DNA of 63,947 nt, the filler included, from Octopus bimaculoides (taxonomy: Eukaryota), in the NCBI RefSeq assembly GCF_001194135.2. It is 8 parts of 6 records of this genome, joined end to end, with 100 filler letters (N's around TTAATTAATTAA, not from the genome) between each part and the next. Parts side by side here need not be neighbours in the genome. Positions count along the whole stretch, not along the records: positions 1 to 18,294 come from NC_069002.1; positions 18,395 to 37,419 come from NC_069002.1; positions 37,520 to 49,002 come from NC_068981.1; positions 49,103 to 53,550 come from NW_026335863.1; positions 53,651 to 55,728 come from NC_068991.1; positions 55,829 to 59,171 come from NC_068981.1; positions 59,272 to 62,658 come from NC_069006.1; positions 62,759 to 63,947 come from NC_068986.1. One strand, 5' to 3'. Positions 3,199-63,779 of the stretch are shown in pieces; position 1 is the first letter of the stretch; each line of letters starts with the position of its first letter. Both the position numbers and the translations under genes were made by a program. The notes under the pieces were generated by a model that did no database searches, was not told the origin of the DNA, and saw only the letters and a list, made by a program, of their open reading frames with translations.

Positions 3199-3231
3199 TT
3201 TGACGTTTCGAACATAGCTCTTCATCAGAAA
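3199..3231 (-). ncRNA. Minimal type I hammerhead ribozyme motif (PLE-type), core intact
   Basis: Minus strand reads UUU-CUGAUGA-A-GAGC(UAU)GUUC-GAAA-CG-UC/AAA: stem I 3 bp, stem II 4 bp, palindromic ACGU stem III and a GUC site. Confidence 0.65.
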
Positions 3232-4195
3232 GGAGAAAGAGAAATACCTGAAGAAGGAAAAGAAATCGCCAACGGCACGTGTGTAGCTTACATATTGATA
3301 TCTATGTGTCTTTTCATAAATACCAGTAAATGCATGTGCGTGTGTGTGTGTGTGCCATTATACACATATAAATATATGAATATAAAAATACATGAAGCTG
3401 CCGCCATGCATCCCGGCCTAGTCATGCGCAATCACAGAGTGGAGCAGTAAATATCCTTTGTCTGTTCACCTCTAATAAAAAGTGTATCAAGTCATTGGTG
3501 ACACAATAAATTGTTTTTGAACAGACAGTCACAGATTTCGCCTTAGCATGAGGCTTAATGTGTGTACACGCATCTGACGACGCTCAATTAGCCTGAAATG
3601 CACACATACTCACGAGCCGCCAATGGGGTGATAAATCTTTGCCTTCGAAATATGTATTGTGTTTTACAATACATATCTTGTATCAACTTCTAGAGCAGTA
3701 AACTTATTTTACAAGATGGATTTAAATTAAGTATATTGCTGTAATGTCAATAATAAAAATCGTTATTAGAATAAAAGATTAACAATTTTCTATTTTCTTT
3801 CGTCTGAAACTAAAATACAAAAGCAAACAATTGTTAACCGCCATTTCCTCAATGTTGCAGATATCTATAAACTGTAGATTTATCCAGGGGTCATTTCTCA
3901 GTAATTTATATTTACTTAACTTCTGTTTTTTAACATATGAAACAACTTTAAATATAAAATCATACCTTAGGGTTAAATTTATATGAAGACATAAATTCCA
4001 TCCAGTCGTACAATCTCATTCATATCAAAATATCTATTCAAGACTGAATCCCAGTCTCAATTTATTTGGAATCTTAGAGTTATTACATTAAATATCTGCT
4101 ATACAGCCTAGAGTATAATATACACTTAACGCAAGTACTTCAATGGAGCTACTGTAGATATTGAACAATTTATGCCACTTATCTTATCGTTGCAG

Positions 4196-4278
4196 AACAA
4201 AAGGGACGTGATTATGAGCCACTAAAACCACAGGCCAATATTTATGCAAAGCCGTCATATTTAAACAACCTTTATTAA
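4196..4278 (+). CDS. Possible short terminal exon with Tyr motifs
   Basis: Acceptor cttatcttatcgttgcag, then phase-1 xQKGRDYEPLKPQANIYAKPSYLNNLY*. Short, so it could be chance. Confidence 0.3.
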
Positions 4279-5012
4279 GTGTTAACTTCCTCTTGATCGT
4301 TAGAGAAATGTATCCAATACGATAATTAGTTTATTGACTTATAATATTGGTGATGATACTTAGCAACTCTCTCAAAATACAGCTGTAATACTTGCTCCAA
4401 AATATAAACTTCGAACATTAAAAGACCATTAAGTATGATGCATCATCTATTCCAAAATTCGTAGATTCATTCTTATTCCACTATATATATGGAAAAAAGA
4501 CGAAGTAGAAAATGCTAAAATACTTTTATAAAGAACATTACAGAACCGGTTTCGATCCTTGAGATCTTTTCAACAGTAAATATGAATAATAAAATTTTGA
4601 AAAATTATTGCAAAATTAAATTTTGGTAAATTTAAAAGAAAAGTCTTTTGAAAGACATATTTGTATAGTATTCAAATAACAGGGGCATTTTTCTTGTTTC
4701 TGCCTGTCTCTGTTTCACTTGTTAACTCTTGTGGGTTCTTTACTCTAAATTNNNNNNNNNNNNNNNNNNNNNNNNNNNNNNNNNNNNNNNNNNNNNNNNN
4801 NNNNNNNNNNNNNNNNNNNNNNNNNNNNNNNNNNNNNNNNNNNNNNNNNNNNNNNNNNNNNNNNNNNNNNNNNNNNNNNNNNNNNNNNNNNNNNNNNNNN
4901 NNNNNNNNNNNNNNNNNNNNNNNNNNNNNNNNNNNNNNNNNNNNNNNNNNNNNNNNNNNNNNNNNNNNNNNNNNNNNNNNNNNNNNNNNNNNNNNNNNNN
5001 NNNNNNNNNNNN

Positions 5013-5043
<31 letters not shown>

Positions 5044-5775
5044 TATATATATATAATTTAGAGAAAAGAATCAAAGTTCATGAACACATCCATGAAAATC
5101 CACAGTCACATATAGAAAAAAAACCTCATCATACAATATGAAAATGGAAAACCACGTTCACTGGAGAAATACCACAAGGAAAATACAATTCCTAGGCTTC
5201 ATTGCTGTCGTTTACATTCTCGCCTCCACAGATTTTCACAAGCATCAGATGTTCACTTATATTTTTACCTTTAGACAAACTTCAGAAACCGGGACATGTG
5301 GAAACGGCTTTTAGTTATGTTTCTCTTCTAAAGGACGTGTGATTTTTTCTTGCCTAGTTGCATGAACAAACTGGTTGCGAGTTTAGAAAATGTTACTGGA
5401 AACAATGACGATTATATTTTCAATGATAATATGCACTTATACTTACGAAACATTTTACGCGATTCGAACTCATTTCATGAAATGCAACGACGGTTAATTA
5501 CAAATTTCCAAGTTGACTATTTGTTTCGCCTCACCTCGTTATTTTCTCTATCAATCAGGTATTGACAATGCAAACATGACCACCAACATCATGAAACTCT
5601 CCACTCCCAAAGCTACTAAAAGTATTACAAAAAAACAAACAAACAAAAACAAAATAAACATTACTCTATTACATTTACATCAGTACAAAACAATACTATT
5701 CTCTGAATGTTGTTTATTTCATTTACCCTGTTGTACTGCCTTATATATATATATCTCTGTAAGCATATACATATC

Positions 5776-5813
<38 letters not shown>

Positions 5814-6949
5814 NNNNNNNNNNNNNNNNNNNNNNNNNNNNNNNNNNNNNNNNNNNNNNNNNNNNNNNNNNNNNNNNNNNNNNNNNNNNNNNNNNNNNNN
5901 NNNNNNNNNNNNNNNNNNNNNNNNNNNNNNNNNNNNNNNNNNNNNNNNNNNNNNNNNNNNNNNNNNNNNNNNNNNNNNNNNNNNNNNNNNNNNNNNNNNN
6001 NNNNNNNNNNNNNNNNNNNNNNNNNNNNNNNNNNNNNNNNNNNNNNNNNNNNNNNNNNNNNNNNNNNNNNNNNNNNNNNNNNNNNNNNNNNNNNNNNNNN
6101 NNNNNNNNNNNNNNNNNNNNNNNNNNNNNNNNNNNNNNNNNNNNNNNNNNNNNNNNNNNNNNNNNNNNNNNNNNNNNNNNNNNNNNNNNNNNNNNNNNNN
6201 NNNNNNNNNNNNNNNNNNNNNNNNNNNNNNNNNNNNNNNNNNNNNNNNNNNNNNNNNNNNNNNNNNNNNNNNNNNNNNNNNNNNNNNNNNNNNNNNNNNN
6301 NNNNNNNNNNNNNNNNNNNNNNNNNNNNNNNNNNNNNNNNNNNNNNNNNNNNNNNNNNNNNNNNNNNNNNNNNNNNNNNNNNNNNNNNNNNNNNNNNNNN
6401 NNNNNNNNNNNNNNNNNNNNNNNNNNNNNNNNNNNNNNNNNNNNNNNNNNNNNNNNNNNNNNAAAAAAAAAAAAAAAAAACAACTGCCTCGAAAAACCAT
6501 TTTCAGGATTTTCGATTACGTTTTATTATTTTCTATTGTTTTGTTACATTCATAAAAACCACTTGAACTGAAGAATTTTACCAAACGGTACTGAAGTTTC
6601 GTGTTTTAGACTTCAGCGATTTTAAAACTTTCCAATCTATTGAGAGTTGATCTAAGAGGAATTTACTCTCGCTACGCTTTAATGGTCACAGAGAAATAGG
6701 TGCACCAATTAGCAAGGGAGCAAGGATAAAATTCCTGATTAAGTCATTACATGAACTAATTCTACTACATCGTTGGCGTTCATGATGTTATTTTTGCTCT
6801 TCTTCTTCGTGATGATGGCATTTCTGTATTGTTGTTGTTGGTGTTGGTGGTGGTGTGCGATTAGAAGCGATTGTGCTGTTGATGTTGTAGTAATAGCATT
6901 AGTAGTATGTGTAATGCTGCTCTTGGTGTTAGTACTAGTATTATATGTC

Positions 6950-7135
6950 GTTCTATATTTAACAGATGAGGAATTATGTACATTATTTACATTATTTACA
7001 TTATTTACATTATTTATATTTGTCTTCATCTTGTTTGTTGCTAACACAACATTTCAGCTGATATACCCTCCAGCCTTTTTCCGGTGTCTTGGGGAAATGT
7101 CGAACCTGGATTCTCATTATTAAGGTATTTTCGAT
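6950..7135 (-). mobile_element. 3' half of SINE family G with decayed hammerhead
   Basis: Near-colinear with 58465-58650 (ggaatgagaacccaggttcg...cagccgaaac...gaggacaaat...(atgtaaata)n...ctcatc). The core CUGAUGA has decayed to CGGAAAA. Confidence 0.8.
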
Positions 7136-7136
7136 G

Positions 7137-7139
<3 letters not shown>

Positions 7140-7201
<62 letters not shown>

Positions 7202-7840
7202 GTTATTATTGTTGTTATTATTATTATTGTTCAGTAGTTTTATTTTTATCACGTGCTTTCACTTCACTACCGAGCGCAGCTCTATGCCTTGGGTATGTGC
7301 TGTGGTTTGCTGTGATGCTCTTATGGTTACTGTATTGAAAGGGTTTTGCGTAGGCTGTGTGCAGTGCCCAGTAGTGCAATTTTCTGTATGTTATATATAT
7401 TTGTAAGTCCTGGTGTCCATATTTTATATGTATGTGTTGTTGCGTTTTCGTTTTTTGGATAGAGCACTGCTGTGAAATAAGCGTGTAGGATCGAAATGTA
7501 TTCCTCACGTGTCCAGTTATGCCGTTTTGGTTTTATTTGCGGGACATGAGGAACACCGTCCGGCCCTTTATTTTGACGGTCATCGTTTTCGTAGGGTACC
7601 GGTCCGTTCATTTCTGTTGTCAGATTGTTTTGCACGTTCAGATCTTCGTACTTTTTGCGTTACAAGCTTACAGTACGCACTTCTCGGTTGTTATTCTTGG
7701 GTGAAATAATACAGGTATTATTTAATCTGTTTGTAATTTCTTTGTACATAGTGTTTGGGTTCGGAGATGGTCTGGTGTACACTGTGACACTAAATTCCCG
7801 CCGGGCTTGTCTTTGCCTTTCATGTTTTCACGGTGGTTGA
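7140..7840 (-). mobile_element. R4/Dong-type RLE LINE, internally deleted derivative with (TAA)n tail
   Basis: Minus ORF joins an N-terminal motif (RHNWTREEYISILHAYF) directly to the C-terminus PGLTNIYNIQKIALLGTAHSLRKTLSIQ. The 3' UTR matches 24540-24740, and the (TTA)n tract is at 7140-7228. Confidence 0.75.
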
Positions 7841-9272
7841 AAAAATGTTCAAAACATATTCTGAGATTAATTTCTTCTGTTTCAATCACTCAGTTGTTAT
7901 TTGTTTCACTCACTCGATTTTTACCTAACATTTTAGCATGAAATTCGCTCCACGAATCTGATAACCACCGGTTTCACGAGTTTTGCATGTTGGCACTCTG
8001 AAAACACCAACAATTTATTGATGCTCTCACGGAAAGCAACGCTAACATTCTCGCGAAGATTAGTGATACACAACGACATAAAGAGAGAGACACACATTCA
8101 ATATTTATTTCATGTGAAATACAGTGATGGAAATGCATGTTATTTAAAACGAGAAGCTCCTTCTAACATTTTGCTGTTGTTGATTGAGAACAATTTTTTT
8201 AGTAAAAGATGAGTTTCCGCTGGTTATATGCGCATCGAAAAAGCTTTTTTCAGTTTCAAAACTGCATGTCTGCAAATATTTTTGGCTATGTTACTTGTAC
8301 ATTATGTGTGGAAGTACACATATGCAAGGATTAGACGCTATATCTTCGAGCTCATCGTTCAACTTTGTAAAAGTCGTTCCTAAATCATTCTAGGATCATT
8401 GACTTTAAGCTGTGGCTAAACATTCCATATTAACTTCATTACAATGGAGTTGCTGTGTACAGACGATAAAATATTCAATGTCCGAATTGTTTGAGGTGTC
8501 AGAACAAAACAGGAGCAATTTAGAGCTAACAACGAATACGCCGGTCACATCGTTTTCTAAACATAAGGCTATGTTAGAAAAAGATATTTACCCTAGATAA
8601 ATTATTCCTAATTATATGATGTAATCTGGTAATATCTTGATTATCGATTTGCCCTTTCAGAACTGACGCTGCAGTAAAGAAGAGACGGGTTTATTGATCT
8701 AGAACAACAATATATGTATTTACCACAAAACGAAGGAGGATTTGCTCCTAGATAATCTTCATTGGAGTTAAAAGATATAAAGGGCTAGAAGTGTAAAGTC
8801 AAGTCTTCTATATCAAGACGATAATAACTGGTTTCTATCTACACAGCTATAAATCGTGGCATGTGATGGTGAATCCGAAAAGATTTCTAACACGGTTAGA
8901 ATGTTATGTATTATAGAAACCCAATGTAGTCTTTCAAAGATCAAATCTAGTTCGTTAATGGTATTGCATGTAATTGATCCATGGGATGAGCAAAAACAAT
9001 ATAACCTTGAAGGAAATTGAACTGAGATTGTAATGAGATTCGGTCTGTTGAAATACGACGATTTTCTGATTCAGCAACACATACTAGAAAAAAGAACATA
9101 CAAGGAATGATGAAATATTCCAGAGGGAATATATTGACTAATATAAACTCTTTTTAATTACAAATCAAATGAAAGAAATTTTTTTGTTATTCCCTCAATA
9201 CATAGTTACATATATACATACAGACATTCATCCGCACATACATAGTTAATTGTACATGTATGTATGTACGTT

Positions 9273-9327
<55 letters not shown>

Positions 9328-9366
9328 GTCTGTCTATATATCTATCTATCTATTTATTAAGATAAT

Positions 9367-9402
<36 letters not shown>

Positions 9403-10063
9403 GAATTTATGTATGGGGGCAGGTATGTATACAGTAAAAGGGAGCGAAATGGAGGCGAGAGAGTAATTTCCAATTACGTATATAGCTTAAATGAAAATTT
9501 TACACCATGATTAATTAAGACGGGTAAATATTTCCGTAGAGAGGGTTGTTGACACAAATTTTTGTTTATCAATGTAAATAATGTGGATGTAAAACTTGTT
9601 ATGGGATGTGATATGAGGCGAGCAATCGATGATGTGATATGTGGGTGGTGCGAACGGGCAAAATCTTTTAAATGGTAAATAAAAGAGGAAAAGTATCTCC
9701 AATCATTGTTAGTTGATTTAAAAAAGTATCTCTATTAGTTTTGTTGTTTCTATAATTAAAGTCCGAAACAAAATAAACATACGCATATAATACAAAAATA
9801 TATGTACACACACATACAAACACATATATACACACACACACAAACTAACACACACACACACACACACACACTCAATTCTATAGAGGGAGACCCACATGAA
9901 AAAGCATAGAATGCAAATAAGAAAATCGTCCAAATATATACCTTTCATACAATCGTCGGGGGAATGGAGTTAAATCGTAATTTCTTTCTATTGAAGATGA
10001 AAAGGTGTAAGCAGTATACATAACATTAAATAAACGATGTTCTGATGCAGACATATATATGTC

Positions 10064-10142
<79 letters not shown>

Positions 10143-10244
10143 TGTGTGTGTGTGTGTGTCTTTGTTTGTGTCTGCGTGTGTTTGTGCATGTGTGTGTATG
10201 TATATCTGGGTGTTCCTTGCTTCTCTGACGGCATTTATGTGGTT

Positions 10245-10306
<62 letters not shown>

Positions 10307-10382
10307 AAACAGGACAGAAAGCGTTGAGGCAAGGCAAACATCTCCATTCCTGTACATTATTATTATTGGAAGAGGATTCGAA

Positions 10383-10960
10383 GTCTTACACCTGTTTCTG
10401 GGATATCCCAGCCTATGGGATATTCCGTCATCGGATACAAATAGGGAAAATGAGAATAATTAATGAAATGACGACATAAGGGACAGGAGTAAAGGAATAA
10501 GGAGATCAAGAAAGACAAGAAAAAGGAAGTATAAAAGTTCACAGCTCATGTTTCCGCCCTTGTAGAAATGATATAGTGTACAAAGATAGCCAAGAAGATA
10601 AGAAAGTGGAGGAGGATGTAAAGGATAATAACGTAAAAAAACACGACAAAATAAAAAAATAGAGAAAATGAAAGCAATTTAAAGAGAATGGTAGGTGCCA
10701 GTGGTATTACTTTTGTCTGTATGGGTTGGGGAGGAAATCTAGTAGTAAATACTTGTGTCCATCCTAGCTAAGATGAGTGGGTGTAGAGGAATGGGGTAAT
10801 GGGTTTGTAGGTATTCGTGAATGGGGAGACTAGATGAATGTTAAATCATTTCGGAGTAGGAGTTAGAATGAAATATTAGTGGATTTATTAGGTTATGGCT
10901 TAAAAATAAAGAGTTAATATGTATCTTATAAAGTGATGAGGTAAGTGTGAGCTAAACATA
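10383..10960 (-). mobile_element. Decayed PLE-like 3' end with hammerhead relic at 10383-10438
   Basis: Minus strand ttgtat-CCGATGA-c-ggaatatccca(taggc)tgggatatcc-ca-GAAA-caggtg-TA-agactt is the same family as 63704-63779. The extent of the upstream part is uncertain. Confidence 0.5.
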
Positions 10961-11501: not shown

Positions 11502-11639
11502 CGAAGAAGAAGAACGAAAATGCTACTTTTTAAAAAATTAACTACGTTTAAATTTCTTTACATAAATACATTAAAAAATGCGTTTGCATAACATAGATAA
11601 ATTAAGAAATGGAGTCAAACGCAGGTGTTTTTCACATCA

Positions 11640-12090
11640 TTTATACTTCCAACATGTTTCGAAGAAAGAATTGCGATTATTTCAGAGAGAATAAAAATGA
11701 TGTAAAACAATGCAGTCATCTCATCAGGGAAAGAAAGAGAGACAGAATACATCAATAAACCGTTTAAAGAACGCATTTATCGTTGTAAACATTGGCAAAA
11801 TGATACCTGTAGTTTCTATAAGTAATTTCTACCAATCTATAAGATTTGACCTTTAACTGTCTTCTTCCGTTTCATTTCTTCTACATACATCTATTTCCAA
11901 GCCTTTAAGCTTTATTCCCATTCATCTATCACGCTATATTTCTCCACTCTTCTAATATTGAGATGGATGGAATCATAATAGAGTTAAATGTGATGTCTCT
12001 TATCTGAAAATATTGGTACATCCATGGGATAGTTGAACTGAATTTTAAAGCGCGAAAAAAGAACGATGCCAGTGTATAGCTTTGTTACAT
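11640..12090 (+). pseudogene. Degenerate PLE GIY-YIG endonuclease relic
   Basis: Broken frames give ETEYINKPFKERIYRCKH and LSRYI, resembling the PLE YIG..F.ER..H and LSRYIW motifs. Confidence 0.4.
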
Positions 12091-40613: not shown

Positions 40614-41725
40614 ATCATCATCATCATCATTGTTTAACGTCTGCCTTCCATGCTAGCATGGGTTGGATGATTTGACTGAAGACTGGCGAACCAGATGGCT
40701 ACACCAGGCTCCAATCTGATTTGGCAGAGTTCCTACAGTTAGATGTCCTTCCTAATGCCAACAACTCTGAGAGTGTAGTGGGTGCTTTTACGTGCCACCG
40801 GCACGAAGGCCAGTCAGGTGGTACTGGCAACAGCCACGCTCAAAATGGTATATTTTATGTGCCACCAGCACAAGTGCCAGGAAGGCGACGCTGGTAACAA
40901 TCACGTTCAAATGGTGCTATTTACGTGCCACTGGCACAGGAGCCAGACAGCTGCTCTGGCAATGATCACGCTCTGATGGTGTTCTTAGCACTCCACTGGT
41001 ACAGGTGCCAACACGATTTCGATTTCACTTGCCTCAACAGGTCTTTGCAAGCAGAGTTTAGTGTGCAATGAAGGAGATGTTGGCATGGGTGCCAGTCATC
41101 GAATTTGGTTCGATTTCAATTTCACTTGCCTCAACAAGTCTTCGCAAGCGGAGTTTAGTGTCCAATGAAGGAAAGGTACGCATAAGTGGGCTGACTACAC
41201 CCCTGGCAGAGGCCTCGAATTATGGTCTCATTTGGCTTGCTGGGTTTTCTCATGCACAGCATATTTCCAAAGGTCTCGGTCACAAGTCATTGCCTCAGTG
41301 AGGCCTAATCTTTGAAGGTCGTGCTTCACCACCTCATCCCAGGTCTTCCTGGGTCAAACTCTTCCACGGGTTCCCTCAATCGCTAGGGTGTGGCACTTTT
41401 TCACACAGCTATCCTCATCCATTCTTGCCACATCTCCATACCAGTGCAATCGTTTCTCTTGCACACCATAACTGATGCTACTTAGGTCTAACCTTTCTCT
41501 CAGGGTGCTTACACTCTGTCGAGTATACACACTGACAGTACACATCCATCGGGGCATACCGGGTTCATTCCTTGCGAGCTTACGCACGTCCTCAGCAGTC
41601 ACGGCCCATGTTTCACTGCCATGTGGCATGGCTGTTCGTACATATGCGTCATACAGTCTGCCTTTTACTCTGAGCGAGAGGCCCTTTGTCACCAGCAGAG
41701 GTAAGAGCTCTCTGAACTTTGCCCA
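40614..41725 (-). mobile_element. RTE-clade LINE 3' end (ORF C-terminus, 3' UTR, (GAT)n tail)
   Basis: WAKFRELLPLL...KGRLYDAYVRTAMPHGSETWAV...RLHWYGDVARM is the typical RTE C-terminus. The UTR matches 48361-48767. Confidence 0.9.
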
Positions 41726-41759
41726 CAATGTCTTTCTATCTTGCAATCTTTTACGTTGG

Positions 41760-42385
41760 GGTGTCCTATCTCACTATCATTTTTCTTTTTGTTTGTGTTT
41801 TTCATGTTGTCTCTTTTTGTCTCTATATTTCTGCTGTTTTTGGATTTCTTGTGATTGCATCTGTGTGTTCGTGTATTTGTGTTCGTTTGACTGTAACTCT
41901 ATGTGTTTCGTCTATGTGTCTATGTCGTTAGGTTTCCATAATTCTGGGTTGTCTTGTTTCTGGTCTGAATGACTCTGTACTTGTAAGTCCTTTACTGGTA
42001 ATTCTACTGGTAAATTTCCTTCGTTTCTCGTTGTAGGTTGGGTTTCCTCTTCCATTGCTTTACACTTCTTCAATTCCACTGTCTCTTTTCCTGGGTTTCA
42101 CCTCTGCAAAATTCCTTTCATGTTCTGTTTTCTGTTTCTGATTTTTTTCTAACATTATATCTTCCTGAACACTCTCTTCTACCACTTCCACTGCTGCCCT
42201 AGGGCATTTCCTTCTCAAGTGCCCTCTTTCACCACATCCGTAACACTTTAGGGTCTCTCCTCCAATATTATTTCCAGCACTTCTCCGTTTAGTAATTCCA
42301 AAGTTTCTGCCATTTTGTCGTAATATTTCGGGCTTACCGCACCGATTATTTCTATTTTCCGTAATTTGTCTAAGTGTTGTGTCTG
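41760..42385 (-). mobile_element. Second zinc-knuckle ORF1/Gag-like fragment
   Basis: CYGCGERGHLRRKCP (CX2CX4HX4C) followed by an E/K-rich segment. Confidence 0.65.
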
Positions 42386-43030: not shown

Positions 43031-43034
43031 GTAA

Positions 43035-47445: not shown

Positions 47446-47593
47446 AAGAGAGTTAGGGGTTGAGAATCCAACCCACTAAGGGATAATATCTAACCAATAT
47501 ATTGCTGGGAAGGTACCTAATTATTGCTACACTAGTGATTTACCAAGTGCATTAAGTGGGTGCGGGTAAAAGGGTTTTTTTACCCTAAATTGA

Positions 47594-48333
47594 TATAGCA
47601 ATAAGAAAATGGAGGGGAATATGAGGTACTCATCAACTTGCACACACTGTACTCTGTTGATTAATCCGTTTATTTTACAACCAAAAGGACAATAAAGACA
47701 ATATACAGACACTTATGACATACTATGTCGTATCAACAATTAAAATTTCAAATTTAAAAGAACATCTAGCAACCAAAGAAGGGACAAAATTTTACAGCTG
47801 CTTCAGCCTAGCGTTGACATGCCCCATTCTATCTATATAGCTCCAGTATGCTGGAGTGTTCGGTAGATGAAAAGGATGCAATGGGGGTACATGCATGATT
47901 CACTAGGCCTCTTCAGAGATTTACAAAATTCAATTCATGAATTTTGCAAAATTCAAATACAAATATAAAAATAAAAATATAAAAGCATATAAAAAGACAT
48001 ACAAAAAGCATATAAAAAAAACATATAAAGAGTCATAAAAACTCATATATACATGCATATGCATGTATACATTACCATATACAGATATACATGAATACAA
48101 AAACATAAACACGTGCAGATGTACATACATAGATGGCTGTACATGCATACCTCAGTTGCTAGATGTCCTTTTAAATTTGAACTTTTAATTGTAGATATGA
48201 CATAATATGTCATAAGTGTCTGTATATTGTCTTTATTGTCCTTTTGGTTGTAAAATAAATGGATTAATCAAGAGTACAGTGTGTGCAAGTTGATGAGTAC
48301 CTCATATTCCCCTCCATTTTCTTATTGCTATAT
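47594..48333. mobile_element. Fold-back element: ~180-bp inverted arms around a spacer with a hammerhead relic
   Basis: 47594-47773 is the reverse complement of 48156-48333. The minus-strand hammerhead-like motif lies at 47788-47921. Confidence 0.8.
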
Positions 48334-48360
48334 ATATATATATATATAATATATATATAT

Positions 48361-51133: not shown

Positions 51134-51519
51134 TGTTGTTGGCACTCCGTCACTTACAACGTCGAGGGTTCCAGTTGATCCGATCAACGGAACAGCCTGC
51201 TCGTGAAATTAACGTGCAAGTGGCTGAGCACTCCACAGACACGTGTACCCTTAACGTAGTTCTCAGGGAGATTCAGCGTGACTCAGTGTGACAAGGCTGG
51301 GTCTTTGAATTACAGGCACAACAGAAACAGGTAGTAAGAGTGAGAGAAAGTTGTGGTGAAAAAGTACAGCAGGGTTTGCCACCATCCCCTGTCGGAGCCT
51401 CGTGGAGCTTTAGATGTTTTCGCTCAATAAACACTCACAATGCCCGATCCTATGAATTGAAACTGCGATCCTATGCCCGCGAGTCTGCTGCCCTGACCAC
51501 TGGGCCATTGCGCCTCCAC
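51134..51519 (-). mobile_element. SINE family A, full length
   Basis: High identity to 35385-35768. Confidence 0.95.
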
Positions 51520-52109: not shown

Positions 52110-52147
<38 letters not shown>

Positions 52148-52179
52148 CGAATTGAAGACGCTGCGTTCAGTCATGTAAA

Positions 52180-52835
52180 AACAAATAGTAAATGAGTATA
52201 TGCATATATACGTACAGGTATGTGCGTACCGACATCCACCTGTATGTATAGGTGCATATCTGGGTACAGGACATTGCAAACAAAACGTAGACAAGAAAAC
52301 ACACAAGCCACATAGAGAACATTCTACTTCATCAGCTACCCCCGTTTTAACATCGGCTTTTCGAAGAGCTGGGCAGGACGCATCGTTAAAACGGCTCTTC
52401 CCATGGACCGCAAANNNNNNNNNNNNNNNNNNNNNNNNNNNNNNNNNNNNNNNNNNNNNNNNNNNNNNNNNNNNNNNNNNNNNNNNNNNNNNNNNNNNNN
52501 NNNNNNNNNNNNNNNNNNNNNNNNNNNNNNNNNNNNNNNNNNNNNNNNNNNNNNNNNNNNNNNNNNCTTGCCATGGAGGAATGTAGTGGCGGACAAATTT
52601 AATTTGCGGTCCATGGGAAGAGCCGTTTTAACGATGCGTCCTGCCCAGCTCTTCGAAAAGCCGATGTTAAAACGGGGGTAGCTGATGAAGTAGAATGTTC
52701 TCTATGTGGCTTGTGTGTTTTCTCGTCTACGTTTTGTTTGCAATGTCCTGTACCCAGATATGCACCTATACATACAGGTGGATGTCGGTACGCACATACC
52801 TGTACGTATATATGCATATACTCATTTACTATTTG
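52180..52835. repeat. ~235-bp near-perfect inverted repeat of a PLE-like 3' end, across a gap
   Basis: 52180-52414 versus 52603-52835, with one mismatch noticed by eye. Contains gctgatgaag, as do the related ends at ~43350 and ~49357. Confidence 0.85.
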
Positions 52836-53317
52836 TTTTTATATATATATATATATATATATACATACAGACAGACATAAACATACATATATGTAAATAT
52901 ACATCAAGATATCTGGTACCACAAAAGACCAAGATATCTGGCACTTTGCTGTACACAAGAAGACCAGGTCCTCCACAGCAGAAGTGTTGAGGCCACACCC
53001 TCTGATGAAGATTGGCCTGCAAAAGTCATGTGCCAGTGACATGTAAAAAGCACTCGTGCCAGTGTCACGTATTAGTGTTAGTGCAGTGCCATATTGAAGC
53101 AGGTGGCTAATACCAGGTGTTGAGATGCAAGAGGGATAGGGGCAGGTGTCTTGCATATATATATACACATATATGTTGTGTAGGTATCAGAGGGGTTTAA
53201 AACCTGTAAGGGATAATTAAATCCAGAGACGCTTCTGGGTATTAGCTGGGTAGGTAGAGTCTTTTGTAAGGTTGTATAGTAGCAGGTGGTTCGGTTGGTA
53301 AACCGGAGTTTAGGTTA

Positions 53318-53501: not shown

Positions 53502-53711
53502 TACATATATATACACATATATACACAAATATATATATATATATATATATNNNNNNNNNNNNNNNNNNNNNNNNNNNNNNNNNNNNNNNNNNNNTTAATT
53601 AATTAANNNNNNNNNNNNNNNNNNNNNNNNNNNNNNNNNNNNNNNNNNNNGACATATAACTATCCATGTCTGAACACTGGCTGTGGTAAATTTGTTCCTA
53701 CCTTTTTTTAG

Positions 53712-53970
53712 AAATAATACATTTCTAAATCTCTCAGAGAGATTTATGCAGTAGTAATACGATGGAGTAGTTGTATGCTCTCAACTTAATGTGACAGTCC
53801 CCTGAAGGGAATAACACTACTGTTGGTTAGACCTAGGAAGCTGCACTGCTTCCTGTCGACCTTGACACATTTCTTGTGTCCTTATGTTTACAAGGGGGAG
53901 ACAAGCACCTCCACCCAGCTAAGCCTGCATCCAGAGACATGTTTCTGAGTCTTTGCTCGTCATCAGTCTG
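53712..53970 (-). mobile_element. Non-coding repeat family E (copy 2) with intact hammerhead core at 53932-53970
   Basis: Minus strand CAGA-CUGAUGA-C-GAG(CAAAGA)CUC-A-GAAA-CAUG-UC/UCUG. Confidence 0.8.
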
Positions 53971-56193: not shown

Positions 56194-56248
<55 letters not shown>

Positions 56249-56948
56249 TGATAGATAGATATATGTGTATGTTTGTGTGCGTATATAATTGTATAGAGAC
56301 ATACATGTACATACATGCATACACCCATACACACATACATAATACATACATACATACCCACATAGATACATACACGCATACATACATACATGCATACATA
56401 CATTCATACATACAGACAGACATACATACATACACGCATACATACATATATACATACATGCATACATACATACATACATACGTAAACACATGCATACATA
56501 CATACATTAATACATACATATATATACATTCATATAAAATATATCGGCCAAACATAGGAAGCCAGGAAACATATGGCGCAACAGTTAAGTCATTAAAATC
56601 GTCCAGACGACAGAACTATATTGAATAAAACTAATTTAATCAGCCAAACAAATAAATACAAATATATCCAGGTTTATTTTTGTTAAATTCACTTCCAGTA
56701 ATTTCCACAAATCCATTCTCCAGCTCCACCGATGCCCAAATAGACCAAAATATGTCTAACACTAAACTACGCAATCTTTTTATTCTTATTTATTTATTTA
56801 CTAATTTACTTATTCTCTCATTTTAGATTCAAAATGTGATTACGTCTTACATATTTGGCATAATATGACGATGACTAATTTCCGGTTTTTTTTTTTTATT
56901 ACTGTCAATGATAAAATTCTGATATATTGTTGCAAATACACTTGTGTT

Positions 56949-57790
56949 AAAATAACCACCTACGTATCATACCTAATGTATACATGTTGTTGCTAGGCCA
57001 GTTATTGCAGTTATTTGTCCTGAAATAACATCTTTTATGGGTTTGCAGTGTTAAAAACGAAATAAATATCAGAGACAAAAATTCGTCCTAGAAGCAGCTT
57101 GCGAGAGTTGTATATGTATTTCAGCATTTTTGAGTCCTTTCAATGGCATGCAATTCCAGCCAGTCACATACTCCTGATAAAGAGAAAAAATGGTTAAACA
57201 TTCACTGATGTTGCAAATAGTCGCCTGGCTGAATAAAAGTCCAGTATATGCAATTGATCCGGAATCTAATTAAGACAATTATCTATGTACCATGTTTAAT
57301 ATATACACACACTGTTGATAAGGTACTTACTGCCGTTATTTGTCTTGAGATAACATCTCTTATGGACATACTATGTTAGAACACAACAGATATCAGAGAT
57401 AGACGAAAATTCGTTGCAGCTGCGGCCAACAAATTTATCAGATGCATTTCGATCTTTTAAGCCTCATCAATGACGCATACTAGCATCCAGCCACATACTT
57501 GGATGAGAATTTCTCGTCTCTGATGTAGGAATAAAGTTGATAAAACACTAATGCTGCGAATAGTCGCCTGGCGATTAAAAATCTGGTATATGGAGCTGAG
57601 GCAGTAATTAATCAAAATAACCATCTACGTATCATACTTAATGTATACACACGTTTGATAGGTCAGTTACTGCAATATTTGTCCTGAAATAACCTCTTAT
57701 GGACGTGCTGTGTTAAAAGTACCATAAATATCAGAGAAAAACGAAAATTCACCCCAACAGTTACCAGCAAGAGCGCCAGATGCATTCCGG
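56949..57790. repeat. ~335-bp degenerate tandem repeat, about 2.5 units
   Basis: Units begin ~56949, ~57274 and ~57615 (aaataaccatctacgtatcatac...ttatttgtcctgaaataac...tatcagag...gatgcatttc...aatagtcgcctggc). Confidence 0.85.
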
Positions 57791-57799
57791 CCTTTCTCT

Positions 57800-58175
57800 C
57801 GAAGTAGTGCTTAGAAGCAAAGTGTGTCGAGTGTGGTCATTTAGAAAATAAGATCAAGTTTCAGCTACGCAGAATCTCCTGGGTTGTGTCGAGCAAGACG
57901 AAAACTTTCTGAAAGCAATCATAACAGGTAACAAATCTTGGGTTTATGTCTACGACCCCGAAACCAGGGCTCGATTTTCGCAGTAGGAAACACCAAGATT
58001 TCAAGACATTATTTACATTATTTACATTTCATGGATATTTGTCCTCATCTTGTTTGTTGTTAACACAACGTTTCGGCTGATATACCTTCCAGCCTTATTC
58101 AGGTGGCTTGAGGAAATTTTGAACCTGGGTTCTCATTCCTAAGGTATTTTTCCGATGTTGTTGTTGTTGTTGTTG

Positions 58176-58226
<51 letters not shown>

Positions 58227-58397
58227 TCACTGCTTGGAATCGAACTCGGAATCTTGGGGCTAGTAGCCCGCGCTCTTAACCACTACGCCATATGCCCGTG
58301 GGCTTAACCACTGCGCTATGTGCCCGTGGGCATGTGGCGTAGTGTTAAGAGCGCGGGTTACTAACCCCAGGATTGCGAGTTCGATTCCAGGCAGTGA

Positions 58398-58465
<68 letters not shown>

Positions 58466-58865
58466 TCAAAAAATACCTTAGGAATGAGAACCCAGGTTCG
58501 AAATTTCCCCAAACACCTGATGAAAACTGAAGGGTATTTCAGCCGAAACTTGTTAACAACAAACAAGATGAGGACAAATATCCGTCAAATGTAATTAATG
58601 TAAATAAAGTAAATAATGTACATAATTCCTCATCTTTTAAATATAGAATTGTAAGATTTCAAGACGTCCAGGAAATCCAAGAGAATGCGATGAGGCAGCT
58701 GCTCGCTATCCTCCAAAATGCTCCAGGAATGCTTCCAACACTGGATAAAGTGTGTGGCTTCAGAAGGGGACAACTTTGAAGGGGACTAAAGGCCGAACTG
58801 CTATGTGTTTTAGTTTTCTTTTTATAGCACCAGTCCCCATAGTTTTTGACAAGAATTCTTAGCCC
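57800..58865 (+). mobile_element. Internally deleted mariner relic, interrupted by the 58008-58652 insertion
   Basis: Left part FLKAIITGNKSWVYVYDPET; right part RFQDVQEIQENAMRQL...KCVASEGDNFEGD*. Ends with a TIR-like ccagtccccatagtttttgacaag. Confidence 0.85.
58008..58652. mobile_element. Head-to-head palindromic dimer of SINE family G (tRNA head + (AAT)n + hammerhead tail) with 13-bp TSD
   Basis: The arms are reverse complements. A box tggcgtagtgg and B box gagttcgattcc are present. The direct repeat AAGATTTCAAGAC lies at 57995-58007 and 58653-58665. Confidence 0.85.
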
Positions 58866-58887
58866 AATGCCTGCAAGAATTGTTTTT

Positions 58888-59171
58888 TTGTTGTTGGCAC
58901 TCCGTCGCTTACGACATCGAGGGTTCCAGTTGATCCGATCAACGGAACAGCCTGCTCGTGAAATTAACGTGCAAGTGGCTGAGCACTCCACAGACACGTG
59001 TACCCTTAACGTAGTTCTCGGGGATATTCAGCGTGACACAGTGTGACAAGGCTGACCCTTTGAATTACAGGCACAACAGAAACAGGAAGAAAGAGCGAGA
59101 GAAAGTTGTAGTGAAAGAGTACATCAGGGTCCGCCACCATCCCCTGCCGGAGCCTCGTGGAGCTTTAGGTG
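58888..59171 (-). mobile_element. SINE family A, cut by a gap
   Basis: Matches the family A 3' 285 bp. Confidence 0.95.
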
Positions 59172-59271
59172 NNNNNNNNNNNNNNNNNNNNNNNNNNNNN
59201 NNNNNNNNNNNNNNNTTAATTAATTAANNNNNNNNNNNNNNNNNNNNNNNNNNNNNNNNNNNNNNNNNNNN

Positions 59272-59302
<31 letters not shown>

Positions 59303-59873
59303 ATATTTATGCATATATATGTATGTATATATATGTATGCATATACGTACAAACATGCATACATGCATATAAAAATACACGCTCACACACACACGTACAT
59401 ATATGTGTAGACATGCATACATAGGAAATAAAATAAATGACAAGAGAACATGCAGTGAGGCTGTAGATTGCATTTGTTTGCAGCTATTTTTGCTGCAAGA
59501 TGCAGTGCACTCAGGGTTTGTGTATGAGAGCACTTCTAGAAGAGCCTTCNNNNNNNNNNNNNNNNNNNNNNNNNNNNNNNNNNNNNNNNNNNNNNNNNNN
59601 NNNNNNNNNNNNNNNNNNNNNNNNNNNNNNNNNNNNNNNNNNNNNNNNNTATAAAAAATGTAAGCATCTGTAAATTGTGTGCTGGTGCCATGAGAAATGC
59701 TTTTATATTGTAACAATTACACAATATAGAAAGACATGTAAAACCGATAACTATATAATCCAACCAAAATATCTCAGTTACGCAAACGTAAACAGAATTT
59801 CTATTTAGTCTTAAAATACATCGAACATATTCAAAATACCATCTTGGTTTTGTGGTACGGAACGTTTTTCTGG

Positions 59874-60048
59874 TATTCTTTTATTCTTTTGGTTGTTTCG
59901 GTCATTTGACGGCGGCCATGCTGGAGTACCGCCCTTTAGTCGAAGAAATCGACCCCTGGACTTATTCCCTGTAATCTTGGTGGTTATTCTATTAGTCTTT
60001 TTATGCCGAACAGCTAAGTTACGGGAACGCAAACACACCAACGCACCA

Positions 60049-60082
<34 letters not shown>

Positions 60083-60172
60083 TGGTGTGTTGGTGTGTTT
60101 GCGTCCCCGTATATATATATAATAGGCTTCTTTCAGTTTCCGTCTACCAAATTCACTCACAAGGCTTTGGTC
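59874..60172 (-). mobile_element. SINE family D partial, with internal fold-back
   Basis: Matches 37582-37850. Confidence 0.85.
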
Positions 60173-60673
60173 TTTAAAGTATACAGTTAGACTTCTTTGG
60201 CAACTTTTCTCCCCCACCATTTTGTAGGGGGGTATTTACCTTATTTTTCTGGGCTCTTTTCGCAGCTATACCTCGTTCGAAATTTGCATTAGTTTTGTAT
60301 GAAAAAACAAAGGAAAGGAGGAAGGCTTGTTTGCAGTTTGTAGAAAAAACATTAAACGTGCCTAAAGGGAAAACATGGTTCCCCACCACCAGCTAAAAGA
60401 CATGAAGGTCTATGAAAGAAGGCGAATAAGTACCGGGGTCGGGGGGAAGAAGAGACAACTAACACTCGATCGTTTTAGAAGTCCCAGAATAAAAACGTAA
60501 ACACCCGAAAGACTTTCCCTCTATTCATTACTAAATGTCTTTCCCTGTTCTTCATTGTTAAAAGTAAAGAAGCTAGAAAAGATCGACCGTATTTCAGTCT
60601 GTCATTGTAAATGACTGAGGCTTTCCTTTCTCTGTCTCTGTCACTTCACTCCTTTTCTCTACGGTTAAGACAA

Positions 60674-60999
60674 TGAAGGTGTGTGGCTCAGTGGTTAGAA
60701 GTATTCGGCCCACGATCGTAAAGTCATGAGTACGATTTCCTGCGGCGCGCTGTGTTTTTCAGCAAGGTACTCTACTTCACCTTCCTGCAGTCCACTCAGC
60801 TGGCAAAAATGAGGTGTAGCTGTAATTCAATGGGGCCAGCCTTGTCACATTCTGTGTGAGGCTGAATCTCCCTGAGAACTAAGTACCTTATGGTATGCAT
60901 GTCTGTGGAGTACTCAGCCACTTGCGCGTTAATTTTACGAGCAGACTGTTCGTTGATTAGATAAACAGGGACCTCATCGTCGTAACCAACGGAGTGCCA
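60674..60999 (+). mobile_element. Chimeric SINE: family B head with family A core/tail
   Basis: B-type head, then tgtaattcaa...cagccttgtcaca...cgtaaccaacggagtgcca. Confidence 0.85.
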
Positions 61000-61319
61000 T
61001 TTTTTAAAAAAGTGAAAGAAAAGGAAATGTTCCATATCGTAAGGCAAAAATGTCATGTGTTTAGTATAAACAGTGAAAGGTAAAATGAAATAATTGCTAT
61101 TCCGTCGTGTATTCGCCCTTGACTCACGCACAGTTTGATAACGTCAACCTGTGCATCGTTATTTAACTGGGGTCTTGGCCTCCAGATCTATGAGACACAC
61201 GAATGCCGCTGTTAGGACCAGATTAACATCCATAGTGACCCTAACGACTAAAAAGAGTTTCCTGCCCCAATATAGGACCTTTTTTCGTTTTCTTCCAACC
61301 ACTTGAAGGTTTATCTTTC

Positions 61320-61477
61320 TCCAGTCCACTCAGCTGGCCAAAATGAGTTGTGGCAGTAATTCAAGGGAGCCAGCCTTGTCATATTCTGTGTGAGGCTGAA
61401 TCTCCCTTAGAGCTACGTTAACGATGTGTATGTCTATGGAGTACTCAGTAACTTGCGAGTTAATTTTATCCTCGTGT
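61320..61477 (+). mobile_element. Fragment of the B/A chimeric SINE
   Basis: Aligns to 60790-60940. Confidence 0.8.
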
Positions 61478-61715
61478 GGTAACGAAAAGTGAAAGTGACA
61501 TCTAATATTTGCTGTGTCTATGTATCTATGTATCAACTTTTCTTTTGATCTATGTATCTACTGTCTCTCTCCCTTTCTCTTTCACCTCCTTTGTGTCCCT
61601 CTTCTCCTCCGCTTTTAATTTAACAATGTGTGTTTCTATGCTTCTACTTTTCTTGCGATGTGATAAACATTTAAAAACTCAAAACGAAGGCCGTTACCAC
61701 TCACTGTCTCTCTCA

Positions 61716-61750
<35 letters not shown>

Positions 61751-62250
61751 ACTCTCTTTCTCTCTTTCTTCCTCTCTGTCATCCTCTCTGTCATCCTCTC
61801 TCTTGCTTTGTCACTCACTTCTTTGAAGTAAGTGTGACACACACGCCAGGTACGTACAAAAGGAACAAATTAGTATATTAATAGTATTGATGAGGAAAAG
61901 AGAAGTCATATTGGCATTACAAGTTTATTATAACATGTCTCCATATATTATGGCTTGTATCAAATAACCTTGCATGAAATATCGAATAACAAATATCGTC
62001 CGTTCATGGAAAGAATTGTAATGTCAATTGGACTTCTGCCATCATTAAAATTATCACTTTTATTACTTAACCAATGAGGCTGACATCAAGCTTGCTGCAT
62101 CTTAACTTGGAGTTGTTTGGTACTCCTCTTGGTATCAAATGAAGTCTTATGGATCTCCTTTTGCTTTTGGAATTCTACGCTAGCCAGCATTCTGCATGAT
62201 ATGGTAATGAGGCAAAAGCCATGATCATAATACATATACACAAACATACA

Positions 62251-62286
<36 letters not shown>

Positions 62287-62310
62287 TATAGTCGTATGTA
62301 CATCTATCTA

Positions 62311-62584
62311 GTGAAGGCGCATGGCTCAGTGGTTAGATCGTCGAGCTTACGATCGTGAGGTTGTGAGTTTGAATCCCGGAACGGGCTGCGTGTTGTGTTC
62401 TTGAGCAAGACACTTTATTGCATGTTGCTCCAGTTCACTCAGCTGTAGAAATGAGTTGCGACGTCTCAGGCTGGTATGCATGGGCGACTGCTGGTCTTCC
62501 ATAAACAACCTTGCCAGGACTTGTGCCTCGGAGGGTAACTTTCTAGGTGCAATCTCATGGTCAGTCATGACCGAAGGGGGACTC
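62311..62584 (+). mobile_element. SINE family B with alternative tail
   Basis: A and B boxes present; tail shared with 16430-16550; followed by (TATC)n. Confidence 0.9.
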
Positions 62585-62591
62585 AGCAACA

Positions 62592-62658
<67 letters not shown>

Positions 62659-62984
62659 NNNNNNNNNNNNNNNNNNNNNNNNNNNNNNNNNNNNNNNNNN
62701 NNTTAATTAATTAANNNNNNNNNNNNNNNNNNNNNNNNNNNNNNNNNNNNNNNNNNNNCTCACAACATGAAACCTTGGTCAAATATCTTCTGCTATGCCC
62801 CCTAGCTGATCAGTTTTGTTGATGAATTTGGTAGATGAAAACTGTGTATAATTTCTTTATATATGTGTGTATGTACGTGAGTGTGAGAGTGTGAGAGTAT
62901 GTGCGTGAATACATATGCGTGTGTGTGTGAGAGAGATGTCTGTGTGTCCCTGTATGTATGCGTGAATACATATATGCGCGCGCA

Positions 62985-63030
<46 letters not shown>

Positions 63031-63032
<2 letters not shown>

Positions 63033-63249
63033 AATAATACATTTCTAAATCTCTCAGAGAGACTTAAGCAGTAGTGATGCGATAAAGTAGTTGTATACTG
63101 CCAACGTAACGTGACAGTCCCAATAAGGGAATGTACAACTGCTATTTAGCCCTAGGAAGCTGGACCGCTTCCTGTCGGCCTTGATACATTTCCTGTGTCC
63201 TTATGTTTGCGAGGGGGAGACAAACTCCTCTACCCAGCCTAGCCTGCAT
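63031..63249 (-). mobile_element. Non-coding repeat family E (copy 3), lacking the hammerhead
   Basis: Aligns with 53712-53930 and stops at gcctgcat. Confidence 0.85.
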
Positions 63250-63309
63250 ATATGTGTATATATGCGTATCTTTGGCTATTTGAGTGTGCCCCCCCCCCCC
63301 ACACACACA

Positions 63310-63480
63310 ATCGCTTCACACCTGATGTTTATGTTCCCGTAATAGAGCAGTTCGGTAAAAGAGAGCTGTATAAGTACTAAGCTTGCGAAGAATAAGCTTT
63401 ATGGTCGATTTGTTCGACTAAAGGTGGTGCCCCAGTATAGCGCCAGTCAAATTAATGAAACAAGTAAAAGAATAAAAGAA
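63310..63480 (+). mobile_element. SINE family D 3' half, diverged
   Basis: gttcggtaaaagagag...taagtactaagcttg...gttcgactaaaggtggtgccccag...gaataaaagaa. Confidence 0.7.
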
Positions 63481-63703
63481 TAGAACATATATGGAGAATA
63501 TGAGGAGTTTAGTTTACTTGTGATCTAATTAATAGGCATAAATGCCTTCCTCCTCCACTTTAATAAAAATCTTAACGTCTGACCCCTCACATATAACTGA
63601 CCCTTACAATGAATAATAAATTATCTTCATTAATTTGTTTTGCTATTTATTTTACTTTTGCACTCATTCATTCTTTCTCACACCTATTTCACACACATAC
63701 GTT

Positions 63704-63779
63704 GTCTCTGATGACAGAATACCTAGTGTACGAACATGCAAGCCTAACACATGGAATATCCCTGAAACAGCTGTAAGAC
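63704..63779 (+). ncRNA. Type I hammerhead motif with intact core at a PLE-like 3' end
   Basis: GUCU-CUGAUGA-[49 nt]-GAAA-CAGCUG-UA/AGAC: stem I 4 bp, palindromic ACAGCUGU, GUA site after 63775. An upstream frame ends INAFLLHFNKNLNV*, like a GIY-YIG C-terminus. Confidence 0.6.

What the first reader, a model, noticed from the sequence alone, without database searches (positions are those of the whole stretch)
3199..63779. Minimal hammerhead motifs recur in at least five unrelated repeat contexts in one 64-kb window
Seen: CUGANGA...GAAA-[palindrome]-UH motifs with a closable stem I. Intact cores are at 3199-3231(-), 38136-38178(-), 53932-53970(-) and 63704-63779(+). Single-hit or decayed cores are at 7043-7088(-), 10383-10438(-), 47788-47921(-), 57437-57474(-), 58062-58107(-) and 58512-58554(+). 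Stem III is a different palindrome per family: ACGU, ACAUGU, ACAGCUGU, AUGCAU. Established: minimal type I hammerheads with palindromic stem III occur at PLE termini and in metazoan non-LTR retrozymes, and typically cleave as dimers. Inference: this genome hosts a diverse set of non-autonomous, probably PLE-mobilised ribozyme retroelements that standard annotation would miss.
Basis: partly seen in the sequence, partly recalled or inferred. Interest (0 to 1): 0.75.

Follow-up and report, generated by a model that had tools for sequence, protein, structure and literature searches.

The report
Penelope retroelement ends carrying hammerhead motifs
The hammerhead (self-cutting RNA) motifs are real and belong to seven abundant repeat families, four of which are the broken-off tail ends of protein-coding Penelope jumping genes and two of which are likely small passengers copied by such genes; this arrangement is already known from many animals, and cutting is predicted, not tested.

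Summary
The motifs are real, but this is a known kind of system. A strict descriptor finds 4 motifs against a mean of 0.12 in 100 shuffles. The window is a pack of 8 stretches, so the sites are not one locus. Four families (A, C, F, G) are 3' ends of protein-coding Penelope-like elements (PLEs), not non-autonomous elements: RT/endonuclease sequence lies upstream on the same strand. Two (B, E) are non-coding 335-350-nt units of retrozyme type; D has no parent found. Palindromes are shared between families, and the 'intact' core at 3199 is likely a CpG-decayed U4C variant. RNA-seq shows passive read-through and no ends at the cut site. One twist: PLE A carries a tRNA-like A/B-box module just before its hammerhead, and most short copies begin there. 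The scan noted this twist and octopus retrozymes before, on other DNA.

The parts
3113..3293 (-). Family D copy (about 180 nt, ends at a TA/TG microsatellite); hammerhead at 3199-3231. Parent element not found.
6950..7175 (-). Family A copy: (AAT)n, decayed hammerhead at 7043-7088, tail. 3' end of a Poseidon-type PLE.
10376..10438 (-). Decayed hammerhead resembling family C over 35-88 nt; flanks differ from C; family not searched.
11571..11768 (-).
11768..11951 (+). Inverted piece of the family G 3' UTR joined head-to-head to the G copy.
37978..38195 (-). Family B copy, hammerhead at 38136-38178 with broken palindrome; ends at the short 3' end (unit position 293).
47447..48151 (-). Family F copy: 3' UTR piece, hammerhead at 47788-47921 with about 110-nt stem II domain (core intact in the family majority), full tail to (TA)n; 3' end of a Hydra-type PLE.
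48155..48341 (+). Inverted partner of the F copy, ending at the short 3' end.
53707..53970 (-). Family B copy with intact hammerhead at 53932-53970 and full 3' end; part of a non-coding unit of about 350 nt.
56947..57754 (-). Family E tandem array (about 335-nt units); hammerhead at 57437-57474; family core UUGAAAA (U3-A8 covariant).
58006..58303 (-). Family A, left copy of a head-to-head pair: tRNA-like module, (AAT)n, hammerhead 58062-58107, short 3' end.
58328..58401 (+). tRNA-like module with A-box and B-box motifs 44-45 nt apart; part of the PLE A 3' region.
58402..58653 (+). Family A, right copy: (AAT)n, decayed hammerhead 58512-58554, full tail.
63028..63249 (-). Family B copy truncated 3' of the hammerhead (no core left).
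63523..63858 (+). Family C copy; hammerhead at 63704-63779 with long stem II; 3' end of a Hydra-type PLE.

Best explanation
The motifs are type I hammerheads in the 3' terminal repeats of several Penelope-like retroelement families, and they are scattered because PLE enzymes likely copy RNA from a fixed start just downstream of the hammerhead and usually stop early, leaving short stumps. Shown: families A, C, F and G continue upstream into RT/endonuclease-coding sequence on the same strand; B and E are non-coding repeats of about 350 and 335 nt with head-to-tail units; A, B, C and F show two fixed 3' ends and inverted upstream partners. Inferred: B is moved by PLE enzymes (it has the PLE insertion signature but no ORF), E likewise by analogy; the ribozymes were under selection in the source elements (stems differ between families yet pair) and likely cut only as dimers or with protein help; the genomic copies seen here are mostly decaying passengers transcribed by read-through.
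For: Family A: of 29 loci found with the RT/endonuclease DNA, 27 have the tRNA-like module and 19 also the hammerhead 200-700 nt downstream, 4 have a second direct copy upstream; locus L241 has an 855-codon stop-free frame with Pfam RVT_1, E 1.2e-10. Family C: Hydra-type linker/endonuclease sequence upstream in L235 (tblastn E 2.6e-6) and L233 (E 0.001), 2 of 6 long loci. Family F: L349 and L356 are collinear (92% over 1,358 nt of ORF region) through a 2-kb UTR to the F end; CxCX5C linker present. Family G: ORF pieces upstream on the same strand in L288 and inverted in L287, 2 of 14 loci. Inverted upstream partner: A 17 of 29, B 18 of 29, C 9 of 29, F 3 of 24; two 3' ends per family, e.g. B partners end at 287-294 in 12 of 18 against 341-348 for the main copies; A ends 43 nt apart in reads and contigs. 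These are the published PLE signatures (PMC8557442 passages; PMC11167929 parts 1-2). Majority sequences: stem I of 3-6 pairs, purine-pyrimidine pair opening stem II and a palindromic stem III in all 7 families. B head-to-tail junction in 7 of 29 loci, E two hammerhead segments in 6 of 29.
Against: No cleavage was measured. Three RNA-seq runs of one study (about 6% of each read, unstranded) show no pile-up of ends at the predicted cut site for A or B; 96-97% of A reads run on into unrelated sequence and B depth follows the 5'-truncation gradient of the contig run; such libraries are poor at showing these ends. D's link to an ORF rests on one locus and 0 of 39 other matches shared it. No partner PLE was identified for B or E. 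Main-copy 3' ends for A and B are biased long by the query. Clade names rest on motifs and similarity, no tree. C and D fold poorly as monomers (stem I probability 0.13 and 0.02), and D carries U4C, reported to lower activity in vitro (PMC3088659 passage).
Confidence: 0.85

Rival explanations
1. All families are non-autonomous retrozymes that propagate as self-cut circular RNAs.
For: B and E have the size (335-350 nt), tandem units, 6-pair stem I and palindromic stem III of metazoan non-LTR retrozymes (PMC7229834 section 14). Head-to-tail joints of B occur in RNA reads.
Against: A, C, F, G run into protein-coding PLE sequence. The same B joints occur in the contig run and in 7 of 29 genomic loci, and RNA depth is not flat across the unit.
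Confidence: 0.08
2. Family A short copies are a true SINE: Pol III transcribes the tRNA-like module through the hammerhead and tail, and the PLE protein copies that RNA.
For: A-box and B-box at tRNA spacing and no T4 run before the tail in the window copy. Of 29 loci found with the module alone, 24 begin within about 7 nt of its first base, 4 continue into the PLE UTR, 1 hits a gap; 23 have the hammerhead downstream. Of 10 copies found through the hammerhead that reach the module start, 8 stop within 7 nt (the L027 copy scored as a stop continues into the ORF by eye).
Against: The module starts inside a small palindrome, and at least 7 of the 24 junctions are fold-backs at it, so RT snap-back could make the same pile-up without a promoter. 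Rfam and ARAGORN at default do not call it a tRNA; phage blastn lands on tRNA genes only at E 2-8. No Pol III data. PAc work says the protein needs ORF-start sequence on the template (PMC11167929), which a short Pol III RNA may lack.
Confidence: 0.35
3. The motifs are chance matches or dead relics with no selected ribozyme function.
For: One-mismatch descriptors are only weakly enriched; most copies of D and E are decayed (7 of 29 and 3 of 29 match their majority at all core and palindrome positions).
Against: Strict enrichment 4 vs 0.12; seven families with different stems all keep the pairing, and E carries the compensatory U3-A8 pair.
Confidence: 0.04

Closest known systems
Minimal hammerheads of metazoan PLE terminal repeats (Cervera and De la Pena 2014, PMC4209133; parts 1-2 of 4 read)
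   Same: Many sequence families per genome, mostly single truncated copies, opposite-strand pairs, extra nucleotide after A9, G10.1-C11.1, palindromic stem III, U3-A8 covariant.
   Different: Host group not named in the parts read; families C, F, G have long stem II domains (56-110 nt) and 8-nt palindromes; B and C have an extra base on both sides of stem II; D has a family-wide U4C.
Penelope/Poseidon PLE PAc of Anolis carolinensis (PMC11167929; parts 1-2 of 4 read)
   Same: Hammerhead at the pLTR/ORF start, two RT start sites giving an optional tail, AT-rich targets, no RNA-seq ends at the cut site.
   Different: PLE A carries a tRNA-like module and an (AAT)n run upstream of the hammerhead; none is mentioned for PAc in the parts read.
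Hydra-clade PLEs (Craig et al. 2021, PMC8557442; section 11 and passages read)
   Same: CxCX5C linker (seen in C and F), C-terminal endonuclease, hammerhead near the 3' end, (TA)n insertion sites, presence in molluscs.
   Different: F has a 2-kb 3' UTR and asparagine-rich ORF insertions; clade membership not tested by tree.
Metazoan non-LTR retrozymes (PMC7229834, section 14 and passages; bioRxiv 10.64898/2026.07.22.740005, part 1 of 5 and passages)
   Same: B and E: non-coding 335-350-nt tandem units with a type I hammerhead, coexisting with PLEs; the preprint argues they derive from PLEs.
   Different: Circular RNA not shown here; B is mostly dispersed 5'-truncated and inverted copies with a PLE-type double 3' end.
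Schistosoma Sm-alpha SINE-like elements (review PMC6765202, passages only)
   Same: Pol III-type promoter followed by a hammerhead.
   Different: In family A the module sits inside the 3' region of a protein-coding PLE, not in a stand-alone tandem SINE.

Membership tests
Type I minimal hammerhead | Core CUGANGA / GAAA / UH or a known variant | tested here: met
   Majorities of A, B, C, F, G canonical; E U3-A8; D U4C
Type I minimal hammerhead | Stems I and II pair, stem III palindromic | tested here: met
   Stem I 3-6 pairs in 7 of 7; palindrome in 7 of 7; monomer stem I probability 0.91-0.99 for A, B, E, F, 0.49 for G, 0.13 for C, 0.02 for D
Type I minimal hammerhead | Self-cleavage after UH (dimer- or protein-assisted) | not testable with these tools
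   RNA-seq shows no end pile-up for A or B; library type is not suited
EN+ Penelope-like element (families A, C, F, G) | RT plus C-terminal GIY-YIG-type endonuclease upstream of the hammerhead | tested here: met
   A: RVT_1 E 1.2e-10 in an 855-codon frame; the endonuclease was recognised by recalled motifs, Pfam did not hit it. C, F, G: thumb/linker/endonuclease pieces by tblastn; RT core not seen for these three
EN+ Penelope-like element (families A, C, F, G) | pLTR partial tandems, inverted 5'-truncated partner, optional tail | tested here: met
   for A, C, F; for G inverted partners seen, 3' ends not counted
Hydra clade (C, F, G) | CxCX5C linker and (TA)n targets | tested here: inconclusive
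   Linker present in C (L235) and F (L349), not seen in the G copy read (L357); (TA)n ends in C, F, G
Hydra or Poseidon clade | Placement in the RT phylogeny | not tested
   No reference sequences held; no tree built
Non-LTR retrozyme (B, E) | Non-coding 170-400-nt tandem units each with a type I hammerhead | tested here: met
   B junction in 7 of 29 loci, E two hammerhead segments in 6 of 29; no ORF linked
Non-LTR retrozyme (B, E) | Abundant circular unit-length RNA | tested here: inconclusive
   B only: joints present in RNA and in contigs, depth not flat; E not tested
tRNA-derived SINE (family A short copies) | tRNA-derived head with A and B boxes | tested here: inconclusive
   Boxes present at tRNA spacing; no Rfam or default ARAGORN call; weak phage tRNA matches
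tRNA-derived SINE (family A short copies) | Independent Pol III transcript that starts at the head | not testable with these tools
   5' ends pile up there, but fold-back at a palindrome explains part of it

The most novel reading that the evidence does not exclude
A Poseidon-type PLE has captured a tRNA-derived Pol III promoter into its terminal repeat, directly upstream of its hammerhead, so that one element yields both the autonomous retrotransposon and a PLE-mobilised SINE; abundant short Pol III RNAs could supply the partner strand for the dimeric ribozyme in trans.
Probability: 0.35. Interest if true: 0.6.

Novelty: new member of a known kind. Interest (0 to 1): 0.3.

Why it matters
As a class it is known, so the value is modest: it gives seven concrete hammerhead families in one animal genome, four tied to their coding PLEs, with natural variants (U3-A8, U4C, 110-nt stem II, bases added on both sides of stem II) that are ready for cleavage tests on the open question of what PLE hammerheads do. 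If the tRNA-like module is a working Pol III promoter, it would show how a PLE can give birth to a SINE; my searches found no paper describing that, though they cover only the open library.

Tried and rejected
Rfam scan of the window: no hammerhead among the 150 of 327 rows shown; microsatellite matches to microRNA models dominate. ARAGORN default: 0 tRNAs; lowered thresholds were pure noise; Rfam on one module copy: no tRNA. One-mismatch descriptors: weak enrichment. Core-versus-flank conservation within families was not used: the copies were picked by similarity and flank columns include truncations. Idea that F has a fixed 5' end at a hairpin: rejected, F continues into a PLE. Idea that the A tail is a 38-47-nt GT-AG intron with the start codon 18 nt after the cut site: not confirmed; the ORF frame is also open from a start codon upstream of the hammerhead, and no matching skip is among the joints shown in RNA reads (34 more joints not shown). 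D parent through L097: unique to that locus. Hydra-type endonuclease remnant 830 nt from a B cluster in L242: intervening sequence looks unrelated, not counted. Run search: no RNA holder listed. Dimer folding: the palindrome pairs fully between strands in the predicted dimers of C, F and G, not cleanly in A, B, D, E; energy models ignore the core, so this was not counted. Lunse et al. 2017 on dimeric PLE hammerheads could not be read; it may already list these variants. No supplements were read; the family tables of PMC4209133 and PMC8557442 may contain these elements.
Full report
Setting. The window is a pack of 8 stretches of 30-38% GC, rich in microsatellites, from a 2.34-Gb genome in 145,327 contigs. 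The repeat landscape looks like an octopus; that label is recalled and echoed by earlier scan notes, and comes from no naming call. The ten sites lie in five stretches from five places on four contigs, so their co-occurrence reflects genome-wide abundance, not a cluster.

Check of the observation. The motifs are at the stated places. A strict type I descriptor with palindromic stem III finds 4 motifs (3199, 11646, 53932, 63704) against a mean of 0.12 and a maximum of 1 in 100 local dinucleotide shuffles; a tighter version finds 2 against 0.03. With one mismatch the excess is weak (3 vs 0.58, reached by 3 of 100 shuffles; 2 vs 0.75, by 16 of 100). Site 38136 is not intact.

Families. Own-genome searches gave first-look candidates (lower bounds; 40 scored each, 15-30 fetched): A (7043, 58062, 58512) 2,839; B (38136, 53932) 2,767; C (63704) 963; D (3199) 909; E (57437) 1,279; F (47788) 1,028; G (11646) 1,599. 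Site 10383 matches C only over 35-88 nt and was not searched. With the window's own copy left out, the majority sequence of each family fits a hammerhead: stem I of 5, 6, 4, 3, 6, 6 and 5 pairs for A-G, different in sequence between families; palindromes ACGU (A, D), ACAUGU (B), ACAGCUGU (C, F), AUGCAU (E), ACAUAUGU (G). Copies matching their majority at all core and palindrome positions: A 15 of 29, B 24 of 29, C 17 of 29, D 7 of 29, E 3 of 29, F 16 of 24. E carries the compensatory U3-A8 pair described for PLE hammerheads (PMC4209133). D mostly reads CCGACGA (11 of 29; CUGAUGA 2 of 29), so the canonical-looking core at 3199 likely arose by decay of two CpGs (inference); U4C is a known natural variant with lower activity in vitro (PMC3088659 passage). 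B and C have one extra base on each side of stem II; C, F and G have long stem II domains.

What carries them. Family A: of 29 loci retrieved with RT/endonuclease DNA from L011, 27 have a tRNA-like module 150-400 nt past the query end and 19 also the hammerhead; 4 have a second direct hammerhead copy 2.0-2.5 kb upstream. L241 holds an 855-codon stop-free frame with RVT_1 (E 1.2e-10), a DKG motif and a C-terminal endonuclease-like region (the endonuclease and the name Poseidon rest on recalled motifs). Family C continues about 1 kb upstream into a linker and endonuclease with CxCX5C (L235, E 2.6e-6; L233, E 0.001; 2 of 6 long loci). Family F continues 2 kb upstream into the same kind of ORF in L349 and L356, collinear at 92% over 1,358 nt. 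Family G has such ORF pieces upstream in 2 of 14 loci. CxCX5C, (TA)n targets and hammerheads define the Hydra clade (PMC8557442 section 11). B is a non-coding unit of about 350 nt with head-to-tail junctions in 7 of 29 loci; E a unit of about 335 nt with two hammerhead segments in 6 of 29 loci; no ORF was linked to either. D copies are short; an ORF piece abuts one (L097) but 0 of 39 other matches share it.

Insertion signature. An inverted partner lies upstream in 17 of 29 A loci, 18 of 29 B, 9 of 29 C and 3 of 24 F; the 4 hits for D look like flanking repeats and were not counted. Each of these families has two 3' ends: A partners mostly 143-177 against about 195; B 287-294 (12 of 18) against 341-348; C about 185 and 340; F about 350 and 509 (main-copy ends of A and B are biased long by the query). 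For A the two ends also show in reads and contigs, 43 nt apart. Inverted 5'-truncated partners and an optional tail are PLE hallmarks (PMC8557442), explained by two internal RT start sites (PMC11167929). That B has this signature without an ORF is the best evidence here that it is moved by PLE enzymes (inference).

RNA. Three raw RNA-seq runs of one study, about 6% of each read, equal on both strands: the A terminal repeat peaks at about 2,400-3,400-fold depth against about 5-25 in the ORF start, a ratio like that of the contig run, and 96-97% of reads run on into unrelated sequence; no end pile-up is listed. For B, depth rises from about 30-70 to about 200-270 towards the 3' end as in the contig run, no ends lie at the cut site, and head-to-tail joints occur in both RNA and contigs. 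This fits read-through of dispersed copies and gives no sign of abundant circles, but these libraries are poor at showing either. The PAc study likewise found no RNA-seq ends at its cut site although the ribozyme cuts in vitro with protein.

The one twist. In PLE A a 76-nt module with A and B boxes 45 nt apart, then (AAT)n, precede the hammerhead. Of 29 loci retrieved with the module alone, 23 have the hammerhead downstream; 24 begin within about 7 nt of the module's first base, 4 continue into the PLE UTR, 1 meets a gap. Of 10 copies retrieved through the hammerhead that reach the module start, 8 stop there. A Pol III start would explain this, but the start lies in a small palindrome and at least 7 of the 24 junctions are fold-backs, so RT snap-back is a real rival; tRNA origin is only weakly supported. 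Searches for Penelope with SINE, tRNA, hammerhead and pol III (0 papers), Penelope with pLTR, tRNA and SINE (3 papers: two reviews and a curation guide; one read as passages) and hammerhead with Penelope and octopus (1 work) found no description. I reached this before looking at the scan's notes; they report the same module and octopus retrozymes on other DNA, which is not independent support.

Verdict. Real, more than chance, and mostly explained: terminal-repeat hammerheads of at least four PLE families plus two retrozyme-type passengers and one orphan family. New members of known kinds; interest 0.3. Papers seen: PMC4209133 parts 1-2 of 4; PMC11167929 parts 1-2 of 4; PMC8557442 section 11 and passages; PMC7229834 section 14 and passages; bioRxiv 10.64898/2026.07.22.740005 part 1 of 5 and passages; PMC3088659, PMC6765202, PMC13282606 passages; no supplements; Lunse et al. 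2017 not available.

Noticed in passing
window 7175-7437 and 24200-24748: 3' end of a non-LTR element with a restriction-like endonuclease-type frame (KPDI..D..V..D..K..KY; R4/Dong-like, recalled) inserted in (AAT)n runs; one copy sits in the (AAT)n of a family A element.
   Followed up: partly
window 20559-20944, 35385-35768, 51134-51519, 58888-59171, 27511-27754, 22892-23125: An abundant tRNA-headed SINE-like repeat of about 385 nt, 82-95% identical between copies.
   Followed up: no
L039, L080, L120, L349 (flanks): A further abundant hammerhead-like family related to D with an A6U core (CUGUUGA), 6 distinct examples in fetched loci.
   Followed up: no
L176, L284, L304, L352: Single canonical-core hammerheads with other palindromes (ACUCGAGU, ACCCGGGU, ACGCGU), pointing to more families than the seven studied.
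   Followed up: no
L241:6277-6431 (-): The PLE A reading frame is open through the hammerhead and tail from an upstream start codon, while a second start codon 18 nt after the cut site would need a 38-47-nt GT-AG intron; the tail varies in 9-nt steps.
   Followed up: partly
L294: RT fragment of a third PLE type (LRPII..SFDV.SLYTNIP) next to an F copy.
   Followed up: no
window 52113-52904: Near-perfect inverted repeat (242 nt, 99%) across an assembly gap; possibly an assembly artefact.
   Followed up: no
window 39107-39712 (-) and 41354-41770 (-): A zinc-knuckle ORF1-like frame and an RTE-like RT fragment.
   Followed up: no
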